Part shown: positions 20,052-28,531 of the stretch, piece by piece | Layout: every line of letters starts with the position of its first letter | How positions within the stretch are numbered: position 1 is the stretch's first letter | Source: Spirochaetia bacterium | GTDB lineage: Bacteria; Spirochaetota; Spirochaetia; UBA9216 | Assembly: GCA_963675665.1 (NCBI GenBank) | Contig: OY776510.1 | Span: 3,424,001-3,488,000 of the forward strand | DNA: 64,000 nucleotides | Direction: 5' to 3' | The notes under the pieces: generated by a model | The model's database searches: none | The model's input: only the letters and a program-made list of their open reading frames with translations | What the model was told of the DNA's origin: nothing | Position numbers and translations under genes: made by a program

Positions 20052-20193
20052 GCGTTTTCCTGTTAAAATAATAGTAACACGATGTTTTTTGATTAAAAAG
20101 CCTTAAAACTTATAAAAAAAAAAAAAACTTACTTTACATATCAGCATGGTTATTGATAATCTGTATACTGATAAAACTAGTAAGGAGAGTCAA

Positions 20194-22248
20194 ATGGGAA
20201 GCGTAGATTTACCAAAAAGTCCAATGGTATTCCACCCGGAAAAAAGAAGTGCGGTGGGTTCCAGGAACTCTCTTGCCCAGGAAAGCAGGGACCAACAGGC
20301 TGAAGTAGAACGGCTGCTTGAAGAAGAAGTCGACAAAGTAATAAACCATATGACAGCAAAATTACCCGATGAAGTTCTTTCAGAACTTGATGTAATGGGA
20401 GGTTTGAAAGAAAAGGTTTATAATTACTTCAACCAGAATTACCAGAACATGTTCAACCGTTATATTGTAACTGCTGAAGATGAAATGGTAAAAAAGGTAA
20501 GAAACTTCGTTGATAAAGAGGAAATGAAGGTTCTTACAAGATACACCCCGAAAGAAATAGCTACACTGCTTGAAGAAGTAGGTGGAATGGATCGCTTCAA
20601 TACCGGCGAAATTGAGAAATCAATTGTAAACATGTACGGACACCTGCAGGGACATATACAGCGTGGTATGAATGATCTTGAAAACCTGACCAATTCACTG
20701 CTGAGACAAAAAACGGATGTTGGTGCTTTTATCAGAGGCGAGAACGCGTATTCGGTTGTAAAATGTTCATTCAAGGACAGTATTCAGAAACCTAAAACTG
20801 TATGCAACGTAAAACTGTCAGTCAATATTCTTGATTCGGAACTGATAAGTCCAATCTTTCATTATCAGGCAACTGTAGAGTATTTGATTAAGGATTTGAT
20901 TTCAAAACAGATTATCGATGCAATCGATAAGGAAATCGAAGTTTTCAAGGATGAAAGACTCGACAAGGGGCTTGAAGAATTAAACGACAGTGAAATAATC
21001 TTCACCAAGATGGGGAAGGTTGAAAACCACACATCCGATGATGTCAACAATGCAAAATCAGCACGGTACAGCTACATTTCAAAGAGCATAATGGAAAAGG
21101 TTGAAGGCCTTCGGGCCGAGATTGATCCTGAAGAATTCGATCCGCTTAATATCAGGGAAAATCTTAAAAAGATTATGGATATCGAGAATATTCGTAACAG
21201 AGGGTATAATACCGCCATTAACTCAATTACAAGTATTCTTGATACTTCAAAGATGGGTTATCAGTATATAGAGAACCTTAAAAATGCACGCGAGCTTGTA
21301 ATTCGTGAATACGAAGATACAGACGATGCAACTTTACCTGATGAACGTTACAAAATAAGAATGAAATACTACGATAATGCACAGCTCATCGAAGAAAGAA
21401 AAGCCTATGATGTACAGGTTAAATCTTTTGAGGTTGAAGTTGAACACATCTGGGACGTTCTTGAAATGGTATACGTAGACGGAAAGAGAATGAAAAGAGT
21501 CACTGACTTTGAAGATCTCTCTAAAATCTACAAAAACAAGGTTAAGAAAAAAATAAAGGTAAAAACCGGTGATCCGGTTTACGAAGATATAGAAAAAAGC
21601 TGGGATGAAGTATCTTTTGTAGATGCTGCTGAAACTGAAGTAGAAAAAATGAACAGGACTTATGTTTTCCAGAAAGATAAACTGCATAAGAAACTTGTTA
21701 TGATGAGAGAAAAACTTCAGGAGATGTACGGTTACAGGTATCCGGTTCAGAGAAGGGTAATGGAAGACAGACTGGCTTTTCTTACTTCTGAATTTGCGAA
21801 ATTTGATTACATCATTAATCCGTATCATATTCAGCCGGGACTCCTTCTTGATGTTGATATTACTTCAATAAAAAGAAAGAAAGCGACTCTGGACGGTATG
21901 GCTAATGTTCTCAATGAATTCCTGCACGGTGTTTCCAAAGGTTTTCAGGATGCAGCATTCGCAGCCTTCTCAAGAAGAAGATCGACCGTACGTGAAGATA
22001 TAGACATGAGCTTTTCATCAGATCTTGAAGAAGAAGATGCGGGGCACCAGCAGTCTTTGGGTTCATCATATCTTGATATGTTGAATGCGCCTGCAGAAAG
22101 CAGTCCTGCTGAAACAACAATTAAAGAAAAAGCACCGGCCAAAAAAACAAAAGCTAAATCTACTGCCAAATCAAAAGGCGTTGTGGATAATGATAAAACA
22201 AAAACTAGACGTGGCAGGCCCAGGAAGAGTAATTTGGATACTATCTGA
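20194..22248 (+). CDS. cfpA: Cytoplasmic filament protein CfpA
   Basis: N-terminus [29 protein letters not shown]...[26 protein letters not shown] matches treponemal CfpA as recalled; AAGGAG SD before ATG 20194. Confidence 0.93.
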
Positions 22249-22270: not shown

Positions 22271-22298
22271 AATCCCCTGTTGAGAAACAGGGGATTTT
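22271..22298 (+). terminator. Intrinsic terminator/stabilising hairpin after cfpA
   Basis: AATCCCCTGTT-GAGA-AACAGGGGATT followed by a short T run. Confidence 0.75.
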
Positions 22299-22316
22299 AA
22301 ATTGAGGTTGCCAAAT

Positions 22317-23318
22317 ATGAATAAAATACTTCGCGTTTATGATAACCTATCAAGCAGGCAGGGGTTTAATGACTCTTTGCTTCATTTTCAGTCTGTAATG
22401 GACATAATTTCTGATTTTGAAGAGGGATATAATCTTGCAGATATACTTAACAGTCTTTTATCTGCCAAAGATATTCAACAGGGGCAGGTAGCTTCAATTG
22501 TTTCGGCTCTTCTGAATGATAAATACGGCTATTACAGCAAATCCGGAAACCTTTCAGTAACAACACACGATTTTGAAACTATTAAATCGGAATTAAAAAA
22601 ACTAAAGGCATTTGATTCTGTTATATGCTATCACCATCCCGAATTGGGATATCTTGTTATTAATCCAAAAAATGAACAAAGCTGGGATGTAACCAACGAG
22701 TTGAGAAAAAATGAGTTTGTTACTGTTTTTGTAGGTACCTTTTCAGACGAGAAAAGAGAAAATGTTCCCAGGGACAAAGTAGCGGAAAAGATCTTTGAAA
22801 TAATAAACGGCAAGAAATCAGTTTTATCTGATGTTATGAAAAAGGGCAGTTATAAGTATACTCCTTATGAAGCTTATGAAGATGAAGAAGAGTATGAAGA
22901 TGAACAGGAATATGAAGATGAAACGGAACCGGATGAGGAAGTAGAAACAGTACAGCCTAAACAGGAGCCGCAAAAGAGCAGCGGATCACAAAAAATGACG
23001 CCGATGTATTCAGTTCCTGTTACCAACGAGTTGTTTCATAACGGTAATGTTGAGGCCTGGAAAAGAATTATTCAGAGTTACAATGCAAAAAATCCGAATC
23101 TTGAAGTACATATTTTTTATGATGGAGAGAGGATTTTAAATATCGCTTCGCTTTTCAAGTGGGGAAAAGTAAAACACGGCAGTGCTATTTTGTTTGCCGT
23201 AGCAGGGGATGATATAAAGGATGTAGCAAAACTTCAGAAATATTTGAAACAGGGTGCAAGTCATCAGTTCGAAGCTTTTCTGAAATTCCCTGTTAATACG
23301 GTAATAAATCTTTTCTAG
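22317..23318 (+). CDS. Conserved spirochaete protein (TP0747-like position) with acidic linker and C-terminal HPr-like domain
   Basis: GAGG SD and ATG 22317; C-terminus VPVTNELFH...YDGERILNIASLFKWGKVKHGSAILFAVAGDD follows the HPr pattern by eye. Confidence 0.6.
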   Translation: MNKILRVYDNLSSRQGFNDSLLHFQSVMDIISDFEEGYNLADILNSLLSAKDIQQGQVASIVSALLNDKYGYYSKSGNLSVTTHDFETIKSELKKLKAFDSVICYHHPELGYLVINPKNEQSWDVTNELRKNEFVTVFVGTFSDEKRENVPRDKVAEKIFEIINGKKSVLSDVMKKGSYKYTPYEAYEDEEEYEDEQEYEDETEPDEEVETVQPKQEPQKSSGSQKMTPMYSVPVTNELFHNGNVEAWKRIIQSYNAKNPNLEVHIFYDGERILNIASLFKWGKVKHGSAILFAVAGDDIKDVAKLQKYLKQGASHQFEAFLKFPVNTVINLF

Positions 23319-23334: not shown

Positions 23335-25971
23335 ATGGATATAAAAGAAAATACATATTTTATCACTAATAAAGCTTCAGCGAAAAAAACACCTGATTCA
23401 AATAAAATAGGTATTAGGGGGCAGCACGCATATGATCTTATGAAAATGGGTCTTCCTGTAGTACCTGGATTTATTATTAATACGGTAGCTTCGCCGCGGC
23501 TGGAAAAAGAAGATGATCTGATTAGTATTTTTAAACCTTTTTTCGATTATTACCGTAAACTTTCAGGCAAGGTTTTTGACAGTGAAGACAACCCCATGCT
23601 TTTAAAGATTGTACTGAGTTCAAATCTTGCAATAGCTTCTTATCCGACGTTGCACAATTTCGGTCTTGCAGATAACACCTTTGAAGGTTTCAGCAAATAT
23701 GTTGGAAAAGATTTTGCAAACCATGAATTCCTGTTCATGCTGAACGGTCTTTTTCAGGTTGAATTGAGAATTGCTGAACTTCTTGAAGATAATAAAGCGA
23801 TCGACAGATACCGTAAAAATCTTAAAAAGCTGAAAGTTCTGAATTCCGAAGATAAAAAGGTTGATTATAACAAGATACTGGAAGGTTTCAAGAATGAACT
23901 TGAACCCGGTCTGTTTAAAAGCGCATCGGAACAGATGAAGATTGTGCTTAAAAGAGTAAGTTATCTGATTAAACTTGAAGATGTGGAAGACACAGGAGTT
24001 GCTATTCTTGTGCAGCCGATGGTATACGGCAATTACGGTAAAGACAGTTATTCGGGCTATTTTTCAACAAGAAACGCAATAACCGGAGATGCTGTTCTGG
24101 ATGGCGAGTTTTTCCAGAATAAATTCAATTCTGCCGAATCAACAGGAAAAGATATCAACAAGATTGACAGGAAATATCTTGATGAATTTAAAGAAATTGC
24201 AGTTAAGCTTGAAGATGAATATCGTGAAATCAGAAAAATAGGTTTCACTATTGAAAGCGGGCGATTATCGCTGATAAACCAGAATCCTGTAAATGAAAAA
24301 TCAACGAGAGCAGATATTAAACTGCTACTGGATCTTTACAATAACAAAACTATTGATCAGAAAGAAGTAATAACAGGTATCAAACCTTCGCAGCTAAACG
24401 AGTTGCTGCATCCGGTTATTGATATGAAATCAGTTCAGAATTTAAAGAAAATCGACGGCGGTATTTCCGGGGCTCCGGGGGCAACCATAGGAAGAGTCTT
24501 TTTCTCTACCGAGGCGCTTCTCGATGAGTTTAAAAATGCCAGACTTAATGATATGGACGACAGGCTTATACTTTGTCTGACTTCCAGTTTTGCAGAAGAC
24601 GTAAAGGCAATTGAAGTTTCATCGGGGGTCCTTTCTTCTGAGGGAGGCTATTCAGCTCATGCATCGGTAGTAGCACGTCAGTACGGGAAGGTTTCGCTTG
24701 TAAATCCCGCTATGAAAATCAGCGGAAATAAAGCGGTAATCGGTGATGTTACCATAAAAGAAGGCGATGTAATAACGTTGAATGTTCCGGACTTTGCCGC
24801 GCCGAGCATATATCTTGGCCAGGCAGGCCTGATACAACCGGATCCTGCAAAAAACGGTTTGATTGAATTTTCAAAAATTGTAAAGGAAAATATAGAAAAC
24901 TTTGAAATCAGGGCAAACTGCGACAAGGCAAACGACGCCAAGCTCGCGCTGGCGTTCGGAGCTGACGGTATAGGTCTCTGCAGAACAGAGCATATGTTTT
25001 TTGACGAGTCACGGATTAATGTTTTCAGAGAAATGATTTTTTCAGAGGATGACTCGAAAAGAAAAGCTGTTCTCAAGAAATTAAAAACAATGCAGAAAAA
25101 AGATTTTACCGATCTGCTGAGCGTAATGGCCGGCAAAGAGGTAAACATCCGACTGCTTGATGCTCCATTGCATGAATTTCTGCCCCATAATAAAGCAGAG
25201 ATAAAAGCTTTTTGTGATTATATGAAAAAATCAACGGGAAAGAGCTTTACCGAGAAAAATCTTCAGGAAAAATCGGAGAGTCTTAGGGAATTTAACCCGA
25301 TGCTCGGGCACCGCGGTTGCAGAATAGCAGTATCATACCCGGAAATATATCAAATGCAGGTTGAAGCCATATTTGAAGCTGCTTATGAGCTGCAGGCAAA
25401 GAAAATAGTTGTCAAACCGGAAATCATGGTGCCTTTGATTATGAATGAAGCAGAACTGAAGATGATTCTATACGGAAAGAAAATCGAAGGTTCGCAGTAT
25501 CCGGGTCTTCTTGAAGTAGAAAAGGAAATTCGCGAGAAGATGAAAGCCAAACCGCTAAAATTTAAAGTCGGAACGATGATTGAACTTCCTGCAGCCGCCC
25601 TGTCCGCCGGTAATATTGCGCGTTATGCTGAATTCTTTTCATTCGGTACAAATGATCTTACCCAGACTACACTTGGCCTTTCAAGAGATGATTTCACTTC
25701 TTTTATGCCTGATTACACCTTGTACGACATTATAAGCGGAAATCCTTTCAGAACACTTGAAAAGCCGGTAAAGGAACTTATTGCACGCGCTATACAGCGC
25801 GGAACAATAACAAGACCGGACTTGCTGAAAGGACTATGCGGCGAGCATGGAGCAGCCCCTGAAAATATAGATTTCTGTATCAATGTTGGGCTTGATTATG
25901 TTTCATGTTCTACATATTCGGTGCCTATTGCCGCATTATCCGCTGCACAGGCATTGATTAAAAGAAAATAG
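23335..25971 (+). CDS. Pyruvate phosphate dikinase-like PEP-utilising protein with degenerate nucleotide-binding domain
   Basis: Intact GGYSAHASVVAR, GIGLCRTEHM, IRLLD, NPMLGHRGCR, MIELP, SFGTNDLTQ, LCGEH; ATP-grasp motifs altered. Confidence 0.85.
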   Translation: MDIKENTYFITNKASAKKTPDSNKIGIRGQHAYDLMKMGLPVVPGFIINTVASPRLEKEDDLISIFKPFFDYYRKLSGKVFDSEDNPMLLKIVLSSNLAIASYPTLHNFGLADNTFEGFSKYVGKDFANHEFLFMLNGLFQVELRIAELLEDNKAIDRYRKNLKKLKVLNSEDKKVDYNKILEGFKNELEPGLFKSASEQMKIVLKRVSYLIKLEDVEDTGVAILVQPMVYGNYGKDSYSGYFSTRNAITGDAVLDGEFFQNKFNSAESTGKDINKIDRKYLDEFKEIAVKLEDEYREIRKIGFTIESGRLSLINQNPVNEKSTRADIKLLLDLYNNKTIDQKEVITGIKPSQLNELLHPVIDMKSVQNLKKIDGGISGAPGATIGRVFFSTEALLDEFKNARLNDMDDRLILCLTSSFAEDVKAIEVSSGVLSSEGGYSAHASVVARQYGKVSLVNPAMKISGNKAVIGDVTIKEGDVITLNVPDFAAPSIYLGQAGLIQPDPAKNGLIEFSKIVKENIENFEIRANCDKANDAKLALAFGADGIGLCRTEHMFFDESRINVFREMIFSEDDSKRKAVLKKLKTMQKKDFTDLLSVMAGKEVNIRLLDAPLHEFLPHNKAEIKAFCDYMKKSTGKSFTEKNLQEKSESLREFNPMLGHRGCRIAVSYPEIYQMQVEAIFEAAYELQAKKIVVKPEIMVPLIMNEAELKMILYGKKIEGSQYPGLLEVEKEIREKMKAKPLKFKVGTMIELPAAALSAGNIARYAEFFSFGTNDLTQTTLGLSRDDFTSFMPDYTLYDIISGNPFRTLEKPVKELIARAIQRGTITRPDLLKGLCGEHGAAPENIDFCINVGLDYVSCSTYSVPIAALSAAQALIKRK

Positions 25972-25984
25972 TCAGCTTTTTGAT

Positions 25985-26027
25985 AAAAAAAAGCCGGTTG
26001 TTAAAAGATGTTACAACCGGCTTTTTT
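25985..26027. terminator. Bidirectional intrinsic terminator
   Basis: A-run-GCCGGTTGT...ACAACCGGC-T-run between convergent genes. Confidence 0.85.
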
Positions 26028-26041
26028 GAATTTAAAATCGA

Positions 26042-26590
26042 TTAGAAAATGCTGAATTTTTTTATAGCCTCAATAACAAGTTTTGCTGCTTCCTGAGCGT
26101 CCCTTTTGGGAACCTGAGCTTCCCTGTTGAATGTTTGAACAAAAAAGAACTCAATTGTTTCAAAAACATCCGGAAGATTATAAAAACAAAGTGCGAAGTT
26201 AATACCGGTCGGTTTTAAAATTGTAAATGAAGAATAGGTGACAAGAGGTTCTTTCGGGACCATAATCTTGTACTGATTTTTGGCATTATGTATATTCAGT
26301 TCACTGAATCTGAAGGGGATGGAACTTCCATGTTCACGGGATACGGGCTCCACATATTTTCTTGAATACATGGTTGGTTCAACAAGAATGTACAGTTTGC
26401 AGCCGTCAGTCTGAAAAGTAATACCTTCGTCGCTTGCAGTAATATTTTTAACACCGCCGTAAGCAACAACTTCATATATAGAGTAAGGTGAATTATTCTT
26501 AAAAAAGGACGACACTATATAACCGCCGTCATGCGGAAGCTTACCTTCATGATAAGCCTGAAAAAGATCCAAAGCTTTTGTTTGAGCCAT
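26042..26590 (-). CDS. Hypothetical protein
   Basis: 182-aa ORF with GGAGG SD; no recognised motif. Confidence 0.7.
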   Translation of the reverse strand: MAQTKALDLFQAYHEGKLPHDGGYIVSSFFKNNSPYSIYEVVAYGGVKNITASDEGITFQTDGCKLYILVEPTMYSRKYVEPVSREHGSSIPFRFSELNIHNAKNQYKIMVPKEPLVTYSSFTILKPTGINFALCFYNLPDVFETIEFFFVQTFNREAQVPKRDAQEAAKLVIEAIKKFSIF

Positions 26591-26641: not shown

Positions 26642-28531
26642 TTATTTTTTTTTTGATTGTTCAGCCTTTTTACTGTACATCTCAGCCCATTCGATAAGAC
26701 CTTTCTTGCGGTAGATTACACTCATATTATAATAAACTCTTCGGTCGCTGATTCCGTTGTAAATGCATTTTTGAAAAACATTGAGAGCTTCTTCATCCAT
26801 ACCGTTTTTATAAAGGGTTACTCCGTAAACAAGAAGAAGGTCTACAGACGGTTTTTTGAAAGCCTCTATGGCGCTTTTCAGTAAAGGAAGAGTTTCAGAA
26901 TCTCTGCCTTCTTTTCTCATGCAGAAAAGAAGCAGTTTCAGATATTCCTCATTGAAAGGTGAATTTGAAAGCAGCTGTCGATAGAGAATCGATGCTTCCC
27001 TGTAAATTCCGGCCTTGCGGCAACAATATGCCAGCTTTTTAATGTAAAAAATTTCATTTGAGAGAGAAGCTATAATTCTATACTGGTCTGATGCAGTCCT
27101 GTAATCACCGTTTCTGACAAGCATTCCGGCGTAAAGAATCCTTCTTTCGGTATCATTTTCATAAAAAGAAAGATATTTCTTAAGTACTGGCAACAATGGT
27201 TTTCCGGCAGGTTCTGCCGATTCTATCAGTCCGTTCCAGGCATCGCTCAGACTGTTCTCAATTTTTAATGCATTTTTGAATGAACTGTAAGCGCGCAAAT
27301 AATCAGATACGGACATTTCACCATATCCTTTTGCTGTGAGCAGCCAGCCGTCTTTCTCTTTTTTTAAACGGTTTTCGACGGCGGGTTTCCAGGTATTATA
27401 ATCTTTGTTCAGCTTCCAGCTGCATAATATGCGGTAGTATTCCGCAAAATCATCGTCCGGATTCTTTATTTCGATTATATCAAGTTCGGAATCAACTCCT
27501 GAATAATCATTCTCAAGCCATCTTACTGATGCTCTGCCGTAATGCGGTTCTACGGTTTTTTTATTAATTTCTGAAGCACGGGTGAAATGATTATATGATT
27601 CTTCAAGCCTTCCGCTGTTTTTGAGACATTCGCCGGCAAGAAGATGCATGTCGTAAGTCCGTTCTTTTTTTAAAGAAGAAATTGCGTAATACAGGGCGGT
27701 GCTGTAATCTTTTTTTAGCCAGAAGGCGACGGCAAACGATTGCCCGGTATTATCCAGGGTGTTTAAAAAAGATTTTATTTCGTCCTGCTCTTTATATGTT
27801 GACAGTAATTCAAAGGCACTGTCGATATCACCGACCAGCATGTATAATTCAGCAAGAATGTTTTTTACAAGGGAATCTTCAGGTACAATACTCGCTGCAT
27901 AATATATATATTTGGCAGCTTTGACATATTCTTTTAATTCTTTATAGATTATGCCCGTATATAATTTTGTCGTAAGAGAAGTGAAACCTGAATCTTCAAG
28001 AAAAAGAAGCCCCTTTAAAGCTTTTTGGTAATTTTCATTCCTGAATTCCTTAAGAGATAAAACAAGAATGCTGTTTATATACATCGTATTGACTTTTTTG
28101 TTATTTGGTTCTTCAGCGATAGCTTTTGAAAGGTAATCTACAGCCTTTTCAGGACATCCGCAGCGCAGCATCGCATATCCAAGGTAGACAAGCGAAGGCG
28201 CAAAATCAGGTTTTAACCGCAAAGCCTCATTAAAGCAAGATGCGGCACGGTGGAATTTGCCTGTTGCTATGTAGGTTCTGCCGAGATAGAAATAACCTGC
28301 ACCGGATTTTGGAGCTTTTGTAATATAAAGCCTCAGAGAAATAATGGCGTCATCAAAATTTCCAAGCTCGTGGCAGGCACGTCCAAGGTAAAGCAGCGCT
28401 TCGGGTATATCATCCGAAAGATTTAAAACATTTCTGAGTTTTATTACGGCTGCCGCGTAATTGCGCCTGCGTCCGTCTTCGATTGCATTTTGGAATAAAT
28501 TATTAACCCTGTTTTTTGAATTTACCACCAA
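26642..28531 (-). CDS. Tetratricopeptide repeat protein (start may be GTG 28528)
   Basis: Many TPR units, e.g. ALLYLGRACHELG and GYFYLGRTYIATG. Confidence 0.85.
   Translation of the reverse strand: MVVNSKNRVNNLFQNAIEDGRRRNYAAAVIKLRNVLNLSDDIPEALLYLGRACHELGNFDDAIISLRLYITKAPKSGAGYFYLGRTYIATGKFHRAASCFNEALRLKPDFAPSLVYLGYAMLRCGCPEKAVDYLSKAIAEEPNNKKVNTMYINSILVLSLKEFRNENYQKALKGLLFLEDSGFTSLTTKLYTGIIYKELKEYVKAAKYIYYAASIVPEDSLVKNILAELYMLVGDIDSAFELLSTYKEQDEIKSFLNTLDNTGQSFAVAFWLKKDYSTALYYAISSLKKERTYDMHLLAGECLKNSGRLEESYNHFTRASEINKKTVEPHYGRASVRWLENDYSGVDSELDIIEIKNPDDDFAEYYRILCSWKLNKDYNTWKPAVENRLKKEKDGWLLTAKGYGEMSVSDYLRAYSSFKNALKIENSLSDAWNGLIESAEPAGKPLLPVLKKYLSFYENDTERRILYAGMLVRNGDYRTASDQYRIIASLSNEIFYIKKLAYCCRKAGIYREASILYRQLLSNSPFNEEYLKLLLFCMRKEGRDSETLPLLKSAIEAFKKPSVDLLLVYGVTLYKNGMDEEALNVFQKCIYNGISDRRVYYNMSVIYRKKGLIEWAEMYSKKAEQSKKK

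What the first reader, a model, noticed from the sequence alone, without database searches (positions are those of the whole stretch)
23335..24300. Systematic loss of ATP/Pi-site residues in the PPDK N-terminal domain
Compared with the canonical Clostridium symbiosum PPDK motifs as recalled: GGKG (Lys22) reads GIRG; SVRSGA..SMPGMMDT (Arg92) reads KIVLSSNLAIASYPT; AQGEDVV reads KFNSAES; DMEFT (Asp321/Glu323) reads KIGFT; LQTR (Gln335/Arg337) reads INQN. The ORF is intact and full length (878 aa), which points to repurposing rather than pseudogenisation. If the orthologs next to cfpA in Treponema share these changes, their annotation as metabolic PPDK would need revisiting.
Basis: partly seen in the sequence, partly recalled or inferred. 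Interest (0 to 1): 0.75.

Follow-up and report, generated by a model that had tools for sequence, protein, structure and literature searches.

The report
PPDK look-alike lacking its ATP site
This spirochaete gene resembles the glycolytic enzyme pyruvate phosphate dikinase but has lost most residues that handle ATP while keeping the PEP-handling half, and it always sits beside the cytoplasmic-filament gene cfpA, so it is probably a PEP-driven phosphotransfer enzyme rather than a metabolic dikinase; the syphilis treponeme's only annotated copy is of this kind.

Summary
ORF 23335..25971 (878 aa) aligns end to end with C. symbiosum PPDK. In its N-terminal ATP-grasp domain, K22 is R, R92 is V, the G101-D104 loop is rebuilt, the QGEDVV stretch is deleted, and D321, E323 and R337 are replaced. 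One correction: Gln335 is kept, as Q316.

The catalytic His and all PEP/pyruvate-site residues are intact. This is not decay. The same changes are fixed in 273 distinct relatives, including the T. pallidum, T. pedis, T. putidum, T. vincentii and T. phagedenis proteins. The N domain still folds as a PPDK ATP-grasp and is under purifying selection.

The window's genome also has a canonical PPDK. In 401 sampled Spirochaetota genomes the paralogue occurs in 137, and 136 of those carry cfpA. In the related loci with enough upstream DNA, the order cfpA, 338-aa gene, paralogue holds in 71 of 71 and 55 of 55 loci.

The 338-aa protein (a TP0747 homologue) is predicted to have two HPr-like folds and an invariant His. 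That support is weak: Z 6.3-6.9 and no sequence signal.

Best reading: it works like PTS enzyme I, passing phosphate from PEP to its own His and then to a partner, not to AMP and PPi. This scan noted the same family before on other DNA. I found no paper describing it.

The parts
20146..22248 (+). cfpA, cytoplasmic filament protein, first gene of the conserved unit
   Evidence: NF040882 cfpA_ASD scores 1183 bits against a cut-off of 500. It lies upstream on the same strand in 55 of 55 related loci that have more than 3400 nt of upstream DNA.
22271..22296 (+). Stem-loop followed by UUUUAAAUU between cfpA and the next gene; possible partial terminator or attenuator
   Evidence: 11-bp stem, -17.5 kcal/mol. 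Its function is inferred only.
22302..23318 (+). 338-aa protein, a TP0747/TDE0843 homologue. The likely true start is ATG 22317, after a GAGG. It has two predicted HPr-like domains (aa 77-172 and 235-320), a low-complexity linker, and an invariant His246 (codon 23037-23039).
   Evidence: It lies directly upstream of the paralogue in 71 of 71 loci. Alignment A2 has H246 and its neighbours N242-K254 invariant in 71 of 71 sequences. The AF2 model has pLDDT 85.8. VIA-align gives HPr at Z 6.9 and Z 6.3. No sequence-level HPr signal was found.
23335..24354 (+). PPDK-like protein, N-terminal domain (aa 1-340): ATP-grasp fold with a rebuilt site. Changed positions are R28, K91, V93, Y103-P104, R300, K301, G303, Q316, N317 and P318.
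24457..24834 (+). Central swivel phospho-histidine domain (aa 375-500). The catalytic His442 lies in GGYSAHAS (codon 24658-24660).
   Evidence: PF00391 scores 29.3 bits. His is present in 272 of 273 relatives. The codon was checked.
24877..25971 (+). PEP/pyruvate-binding TIM-barrel domain (aa 515-878) with the full catalytic set: R550, R606, E750, N773, D774 and C835.
   Evidence: PF02896 scores 228 bits. Each residue is present in 272 or 273 of 273 relatives.
25987..26027 (.). Stem-loop flanked by an A-run and a T-run between the convergent genes; probable two-way terminator that ends the unit
   Evidence: 15-bp stem, -21.3 kcal/mol.

Best explanation
The gene encodes a spirochaete-specific paralogue of pyruvate phosphate dikinase, called PpdkL here.

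It keeps one half of the PPDK mechanism. PEP bound in the C-terminal barrel phosphorylates the swivelling His442 and releases pyruvate.

It has lost the other half. The ATP-grasp domain no longer has the Mg2+ ligands or most of the phosphate-binding residues needed to pass the phosphate on to AMP and PPi. That domain is kept as a fold. Its former active site is rebuilt into a conserved, mostly basic surface: R28, K91, R300, R303 (K301 in this clade), R/K317 and K322.

I infer that this surface now presents a different acceptor to the phospho-His. The most likely acceptor is the co-transcribed 338-aa protein, whose conserved C-terminal domain looks like HPr and carries an invariant His. If so, PpdkL works like PTS enzyme I, in a PEP-dependent relay tied to the CfpA cytoplasmic filament.

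Shown here: the residue pattern, the retained fold, selection, the coexisting canonical PPDK, and the gene linkage.

Inferred: PEP autophosphorylation, loss of ATP/PPi chemistry, the identity of the acceptor, and any effect on the filament.
For: Residues:
- The His and PEP-site residues are invariant. The ATP-site residues are replaced in 273 distinct relatives and in 11 of 11 paralogues, against 0 of 11 canonical copies from the same genomes.

Fold:
- The N-domain model has pLDDT 89.9 and pTM 0.88. Its best PDB matches are PPDK N domains, E 8e-18 to 2e-15, TMq 0.60-0.75.

Constraint:
- Over 55 genome pairs, N-domain identity is 0.36 in paralogues against 0.65 in canonical copies. The His and C domains are equal (0.60 against 0.61-0.63).
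- dN of the N domain is about 1.3-2.2 times that of the C domain. dN/dS is 0.07-0.12 where it could be computed.

Not redundant:
- The window's own genome has a canonical PPDK.
- About 117 of 137 paralogue-bearing genomes also have one.
- The two groups are split by a branch with 100% support, and the branching order inside each group is similar.

Linkage:
- 136 of 137 paralogue-bearing genomes carry cfpA, and 252 of 401 have neither.
- The 338-aa gene lies directly upstream in 71 of 71 loci, and cfpA in 55 of 55.
- Only 16 nt separate the 338-aa gene's stop codon from the paralogue's start.
- TDE0842-0844 are co-repressed in T. denticola (table and passages of PMC3914990).

Partner:
- HPr chains are the top matches for both halves of the 338-aa model. 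Residues 77-172 match 9s8b_C at Z 6.9, rmsd 2.6 over 82 residues. Residues 235-320 match 1kkl_H at Z 6.3, rmsd 2.4 over 77 residues with 21% identity.
- His246 sits just before the first long helix and is invariant in 71 of 71 sequences.
Against: - No biochemistry exists, and nucleotide binding is untested.
- K22 to R is conservative. Q335 is kept. Most relatives have R/K one position before R337. A rebuilt anion site could therefore still bind PPi, Pi or a nucleotide.
- One complete 1.1-Mb genome (G102) has the paralogue but no canonical PPDK and no pyruvate kinase. The literature assumes that TP0746 makes ATP.
- The HPr likeness rests on a predicted fold at a middling Z, where the tool itself warns that values under 8 are common. 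Foldseek gives E 0.1. HMM and profile-profile comparisons with HPr are not significant (hhalign probability 1.4%).
- His246 lacks the Arg that follows His15 in HPr (H-N-G-N here; the HPr motif is recalled).
- The window's own clade (18 of 273) lacks R303 and R/K317.
Confidence: 0.5

Rival explanations
1. It is still a working PPDK, or a close variant that uses a nucleotide and PPi. Its ATP-grasp site has drifted, and substitute residues (R28 for K22, K91 for R92, R/K317 for R337, Q316 for Q335) do the same job.
For: - K to R is conservative. K91 lies two residues before the R92 position, so on the same face of the strand. Q316 is invariant. R/K317 is present in 255 of 273 relatives.
- G102 has no canonical PPDK and no pyruvate kinase.
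- Papers call TP0746 the glycolytic Ppdk.
Against: - Both acidic metal ligands are gone. D321 is variable. E323 is R in 252 and G in 18 of 273 relatives, which reverses the charge.
- The G101-D104 loop and the QGEDVV stretch are lost.
- It scores below the TIGR01828 and PF01326 cut-offs.
- It coexists with a canonical copy in most genomes.
- G102 has a GTP-type PEPCK and an oxaloacetate decarboxylase beta subunit. That gives another route from PEP to pyruvate.
Confidence: 0.08
2. It is a PEP-dependent phosphotransferase to a small anion or metabolite bound in the rebuilt basic pocket, not to a protein. One example would be Pi, giving PPi.
For: - The pocket changed from acidic, metal-binding to conserved basic residues.
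- The PEP half-reaction is intact.
- Making PPi from PEP would suit organisms that use PPi-dependent glycolysis. That T. pallidum does so is recalled and was not checked here.
Against: - It does not explain the strict linkage to cfpA and the 338-aa gene.
- The window's clade lacks two of the basic residues.
- No ligand evidence exists.
Confidence: 0.17
3. It is a sensor or scaffold. It autophosphorylates from PEP, or merely binds PEP and pyruvate, and its state changes how it binds CfpA or the 338-aa protein. No onward phosphotransfer occurs.
For: - The gene linkage is the same as for the best explanation.
- The N domain evolves faster than the other domains, as a docking surface might.
- The HPr evidence is weak.
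Against: - Complete invariance of the catalytic Cys, Arg, Glu, Asn and Asp of the PEP site and of the His argues for turnover, not binding alone.
- An invariant His in the partner would have no role.
Confidence: 0.2

Closest known systems
Pyruvate, phosphate dikinase (EC 2.7.9.1; C. symbiosum 1DIK/1KBL, maize 1VBG, Flaveria 5JVJ; TIGR01828)
   Same: Same length and three-domain order. It aligns end to end (E 1e-133). The C domain is about 51% identical to the same genome's canonical copy. The catalytic His and the PEP/pyruvate residues are the same. The N domain has the same fold.
   Different: The nucleotide/phosphate site is rebuilt. The N domain is only 24% identical to the canonical copy. 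It scores below the family cut-offs. It forms a separate clade. It is fixed in a cfpA gene cluster, not a metabolic one.
PTS enzyme I and EI-Ntr (PtsI/PtsP; TIGR01417)
   Same: It has the PEP-utilizers_C barrel plus a swivel His domain. PEP is the proposed donor. It is encoded next to a protein with a predicted HPr-like fold and a conserved His. This is what it may work like.
   Different: It has no EIN helical HPr-binding domain. A degenerate ATP-grasp stands in that place. TIGR01417 scores 102 bits against a cut-off of 342. The partner is a 338-aa two-domain protein with no sequence match to HPr.
Rifampin phosphotransferase and PEP synthase (ATP-grasp plus swivel His with a swapped third domain)
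   Same: These are precedents for the PPDK chassis being re-used with one substrate domain exchanged (abstract and passages of PMC4844700). They are weaker structural matches of the N domain (E 8e-7 to 6e-5).
   Different: Those enzymes keep ATP chemistry and change the acceptor domain. Here the PEP domain is kept and the ATP domain is the one changed.

Membership tests
Pyruvate, phosphate dikinase (TIGR01828 / EC 2.7.9.1) | Three domains in the order ATP-grasp, swivel His domain, PEP/pyruvate TIM barrel | tested here: met
Pyruvate, phosphate dikinase (TIGR01828 / EC 2.7.9.1) | Catalytic His455 | tested here: met
   His442 in GGYSAHAS. His is present in 272 of 273 relatives.
Pyruvate, phosphate dikinase (TIGR01828 / EC 2.7.9.1) | PEP/pyruvate-site residues R561, R617, E745, N768, D769 and C831 (roles recalled) | tested here: met
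   R550, R606, E750, N773, D774 and C835 are each present in 272 or 273 of 273 relatives.
Pyruvate, phosphate dikinase (TIGR01828 / EC 2.7.9.1) | ATP/Pi-site residues K22, R92, the G101-M103 loop, D321, E323, Q335 and R337 (roles recalled; Lys22 seen in PMC4844700) | tested here: not met
   Only Q335 is kept, and K22 is R. R92 is V. D321 and E323 are replaced, and R337 is replaced. The loop is rebuilt.
Pyruvate, phosphate dikinase (TIGR01828 / EC 2.7.9.1) | Score above the curated cut-offs of TIGR01828 and PF01326 | tested here: not met
   633 bits against 843. 20.3 bits against 27. The genome's other copy scores 1318 bits.
Pyruvate, phosphate dikinase (TIGR01828 / EC 2.7.9.1) | Reversible ATP + Pi + pyruvate to AMP + PPi + PEP activity | not testable with these tools
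   This needs an enzyme assay.
PTS enzyme I (TIGR01417) | PEP-binding barrel plus phospho-His domain | tested here: met
   PF02896 and PF00391 both hit.
PTS enzyme I (TIGR01417) | N-terminal helical HPr-binding domain, and a score above the family cut-off | tested here: not met
   Pfam gave only the three PPDK-type domains at E <= 0.01. TIGR01417 scores 102 bits against 342.
HPr (PF00381), for the neighbouring 338-aa protein | Sequence match to the family | tested here: not met
   The window protein has no PF00381 hit at E <= 5. PF00381 is not among the 25 families listed for the 71 members; 62 families matched in all and 37 were not shown. A PDB profile search found no HPr at E <= 10. hhalign against 27 spirochaete HPr sequences gives probability 1.4%.
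HPr (PF00381), for the neighbouring 338-aa protein | Open-faced beta-alpha-beta-beta-alpha-beta-alpha fold with the active His just before helix 1 | tested here: inconclusive
   The DSSP order in the model fits, with His246 before helix 247-263. HPr chains rank first for both halves, at Z 6.3-6.9. Foldseek gives E 0.1. No residue-level structural alignment was available.

The most novel reading that the evidence does not exclude
Spirochaetes have a third kind of PEP-dependent phosphorelay, beside the sugar PTS and PTS-Ntr. It is built on a PPDK chassis whose ATP-grasp domain became the docking site for a tandem-HPr-like carrier. It links the PEP/pyruvate state of the cell to the CfpA cytoplasmic filament, and so to cell division or chromosome handling. 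As a corollary, the syphilis treponeme would have no true PPDK. Its last glycolytic step, ATP yield and PPi budget would then need redrawing, for instance through PEPCK plus oxaloacetate decarboxylase.
Probability: 0.3. Interest if true: 0.85.

Novelty: new variant of a known kind. Interest (0 to 1): 0.7.

Why it matters
TP0746 and TDE0844 are carried in annotations and papers as the PPDK of pathogenic and oral treponemes (passages of PMC10013896, PMC8525777 and PMC3914990). The T. pallidum copy is assumed to make ATP from PEP, AMP and PPi.

If the ATP/PPi half-reaction is gone, metabolic models of T. pallidum need a different route from PEP to pyruvate. The interpretation of ppdK expression changes and of TP0746 variants would also change.

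The work also gives the little-understood CfpA filament two testable partners and a possible metabolic input. It offers a clear case of an ATP-grasp domain kept as a fold after losing its chemistry.

RefSeq already names many members 'putative PEP-binding protein', so the annotation pipeline implicitly declines to call them PPDK. My searches of the held library found no paper that describes the lost site or the filament link. Subscription journals are mostly not covered.

Tried and rejected
Binding is therefore untested.
- Sequence-level tests of the HPr idea gave nothing significant: Pfam on 71 members, a PDB profile search and hhalign against 27 spirochaete HPr sequences (probability 1.4%, though the 44 aligned columns are in the expected register).
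- Foldseek on the 338-aa model gave no match at E <= 0.001.
- The ESM Atlas gave scores of 0.82-0.89, which are leads only. One cluster is named 'TP_0747 N-terminal domain-containing protein', PF27497. That model is not in the local Pfam copy.
- No RNA holder was listed for the locus, so co-transcription was not checked and read laying was not used.
- dN/dS: synonymous sites are near saturation (pS 0.69-0.89). 7 of 15 domain comparisons gave no dS.
- I tested whether the charge of the 338-aa protein's linker covaries with the pocket residues 301/303/315/317. It does not. Linker charge runs from -23 to +17 within one signature class.
- Ye et al. 2001 (pmid 11468288) is not held. PMC5371819 held none of the residue names I searched for.
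- I considered pseudogenisation and rejected it. The frame is intact, residues are invariant, and the gene is retained in a 1.1-Mb genome.
- The tree has no outgroup, so the age and direction of the duplication are not established (quick search only, the careful one did not finish).
Full report
**The object.** Window 23335..25971 (+) is an intact 878-aa ORF with an ATG start preceded by GAGG.
- Pfam finds a strong PEP-utilizers_C domain (228 bits, aa 517-872) and the mobile His domain (29 bits). The PPDK_N nucleotide-binding domain scores 20.3 bits, below its cut-off of 27.
- The NCBIfam PPDK equivalog TIGR01828 scores 633 bits, below its cut-off of 843.
- The protein aligns end to end with C. 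symbiosum PPDK (1DIK, E 2.1e-133).

**Checking the observation.** I counted along the printed 1DIK alignment. The pairs are given with the 1DIK residue first.
- G21-K22 is I27-R28.
- S90 is K91 and R92 is V93.
- The G101-M102-M103-D104 loop is S102, a gap, Y103 and P104.
- The QGEDVV stretch falls at a 4-residue gap.
- D321 is K301, E323 is G303 and R337 is P318.

In contrast, His455 (His442 here) is present. So are the PEP/pyruvate-site residues: RTEH, RLLD, NPMLGHRG, MIELP, GTNDLTQ and CGEHG.

Gln335 is retained as Q316 once the single-residue gap is placed as in the 2DIK alignment. Q316 is invariant in the family.

The roles of these residues are recalled from the mutagenesis literature. 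Ye et al. 2001 was not held. Only the role of Lys22 was seen in print (passages of PMC4844700).

**It is a family, not a decaying copy.**
- A search with residues 1-400 found 898 relatives at E <= 0.001 among 7998 candidates scored. The best 120 all share the altered motifs.
- A second search from the T. phagedenis member listed proteins named by their sources as T. pallidum (P0124, 901 aa, on a contig of 1,139,417 bases), T. pedis, T. putidum and T. vincentii. They carry the same changes.
- Over 273 distinct full-length members: K22 is R in 272, and R92 is V in 273 with K two residues before it in 273. E323 is R in 252 and G in 18, and D321 is variable. Q316 is invariant. Position 317 is R in 136, K in 119 and N in 18.
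- In the same 273 members the His is present in 272, and R550, R606, E750, N773 and C835 in 273 (D774 in 272).
- The window belongs to the clade of 18 with K301/G303/N315/N317. There a Lys two residues before position 303 may stand in for the Arg that the other relatives have at 303 (inference).
- In 11 genomes for which I extracted both copies, the canonical copy has every ATP-site residue in 11 of 11. The paralogue has none of K22, R92, G101, D321 or E323.

**Fold and selection.**
- An AF2 model of aa 1-350, built with 74 sequences, has pLDDT 89.9 and pTM 0.88. The only very uncertain stretch is 265-268, where QGEDVV is missing.
- Its best PDB matches are PPDK N domains: 2r82 at E 7.9e-18 and TMq 0.72, and 5jvj_A at TMq 0.75 and rmsd 4.4. 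Identity is 18-23%. 24 matches reach E <= 0.001.
- Across 55 pairs of the 11 genomes, the N domain is 36% identical among paralogues and 65% among canonical copies. The His and C domains are equally conserved in both (60% against 61-63%).
- Between the two copies in one genome, identity is 24% for the N domain, 33% for the His domain and 51% for the C domain.
- Nei-Gojobori estimates on close relatives give an N-domain dN of 0.13-0.29, against 0.07-0.15 for the C domain. dN/dS is 0.07-0.12 where dS could be computed. Synonymous sites are near saturation.
- The N domain is therefore relaxed relative to a working ATP-grasp but still clearly constrained.

**A second, canonical PPDK.**
- The window's genome (one 5.15-Mb contig) has a canonical PPDK about 370 kb away, scoring 1318 bits with all motifs.
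- In 401 sampled Spirochaetota genomes, 258 have a match over the TIGR01828 cut-off and 282 have a match at E <= 1e-80. 137 have the paralogue, using the N-domain profile A1 at E <= 1e-70.
- By my reading of the best E-values, about 20 of the 137 lack an over-cut-off copy. My list had 25 sub-cut-off genomes where the tool's tally implies 24. So about 117 genomes carry both.
- A quick maximum-likelihood tree of the 22 proteins separates canonical copies from paralogues by a branch with 100% SH-aLRT support. The internal branching orders are similar. There is no outgroup, and the careful search did not finish.

**Gene context.**
- The paralogue follows cfpA (NF040882, 1183 bits) and a 338-aa gene.
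- A scan of one genome per species (185,579) gave 401 confirmed relatives among 458 pattern matches. Of the best 80 loci, 76 carry a spirochaete label.
- In those loci the 338-aa gene lies within 12-99 nt upstream in 71 of 71 loci with enough DNA. cfpA lies upstream in 55 of 55. A conserved 182-aa gene converges downstream in 55 of 66.
- Across the 401 genomes, cfpA is in 148 and the paralogue in 137. Both are present in 136, the paralogue alone in 1, cfpA alone in 12, and neither in 252. Relatives are not independent, so this is a pattern and not a statistic.
- In the window, a stable stem-loop with a U-tract follows cfpA. Only 16 nt separate the 338-aa gene's stop codon from the paralogue's start. 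A stem-loop flanked by A- and T-runs follows the paralogue.
- In T. denticola, TDE0842-0844 (cfpA, a hypothetical protein, and 'pyruvate phosphate dikinase, putative') were repressed together (table and passages of PMC3914990).

**The neighbour.**
- The 338-aa protein has no Pfam hit in the local library.
- Its last ~110 residues are almost invariant across the phylum, including N242-K254 with His246, in 71 of 71 sequences.
- The AF2 model has pLDDT 85.8. Residues 236-318 show the beta-alpha-beta-beta-alpha-beta-alpha order, with His246 just before the first long helix.
- Against 48,161 PDB representatives, the top matches are HPr chains for both halves. Residues 77-172 match at Z 6.9, rmsd 2.6, with 82 of 85 residues aligned. 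Residues 235-320 match at Z 6.3, rmsd 2.4, with 77 residues aligned and 21% identity.
- These Z values are in the range the tool calls common. Foldseek gives only E 0.1. HMM and profile-profile comparisons with HPr are not significant.
- The HPr likeness is therefore a supported lead, not a finding.
- The complex predictor was unavailable.

**Metabolic context.**
- Of five paralogue-only genomes that I checked, four have pyruvate kinase.
- The fifth, G102, is a complete 1.1-Mb genome at 99% completeness. It has no pyruvate kinase and no canonical PPDK. It does have a GTP-type PEPCK (544 bits) and an oxaloacetate decarboxylase beta subunit (504 bits).
- A route from PEP to pyruvate therefore exists in G102 without a PPDK.
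- Retention of the paralogue and cfpA in so small a genome argues that they matter.

**Reading.**
- The half-reaction PEP + His to pyruvate + His~P is very probably kept. The AMP/PPi half is very probably lost.
- The conserved, now basic, former ATP site most likely presents another acceptor. The fixed neighbour with an invariant His is the best candidate, which would make the protein work like PTS enzyme I.
- It is not a member of the EI family. It lacks the EIN domain and scores 102 bits against a cut-off of 342.
- It fails two defining tests of PPDK: the ATP-site residues and the curated cut-offs.
- The rivals are a divergent but working PPDK, a small-anion phosphotransferase, and a sensor or scaffold.

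**Novelty.**
- RefSeq names many members 'putative PEP-binding protein'.
- The papers I read in passages still treat TP0746 as the glycolytic Ppdk.
- Five full-text searches found no description of the lost site or of the filament link.
- This scan had already reached a similar reading on other genomes (e1-5048468 and e1-5048467).

Noticed in passing
window 22120-22248 (C-terminus of CfpA): CfpA ends in a K/R-rich tail containing R-R-G-R-P-R-K, an AT-hook-like motif (translation).
   Followed up: no
window 26042-26590 (-) and 26642-28531 (-): A 182-aa protein with no Pfam or NCBIfam hit converges on the paralogue. It is conserved at 49-87% identity in 55 of 66 related loci. A 629-aa TPR protein usually follows it.
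   Followed up: partly
G056, G032, G126, G119, G044, G018, G104, G154, G175: A subgroup of paralogue-like ORFs of about 965-972 aa matches the N-domain profile only from position ~140-170 onward. Their first ~250 residues differ from the rest of the family.
   Followed up: no
P0073, P0124, P0160, P0168: The Treponema members carry C-terminal extensions rich in K, A and P, up to about 100 residues in T. pedis. These are absent from the window's protein.
   Followed up: no
window 22302-23318, aa 183-231: The linker between the two predicted domains of the 338-aa protein is low-complexity. Its net charge ranges from -23 to +17 among relatives. It is strongly acidic and Tyr-rich in the window.
   Followed up: yes
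G000 outside the window: The genome also encodes two EI-like proteins (583 and 585 aa), two larger PEP-utilising proteins (758 and 774 aa open frames), two HPr genes, and an HPr-like stretch inside a 525-aa frame.
   Followed up: no
The ESM Atlas lists a cluster named after Pfam PF27497 'TP_0747_N'. The N-terminal part of the 338-aa protein family therefore has a recent Pfam entry that is missing from the local Pfam copy.
   Followed up: no
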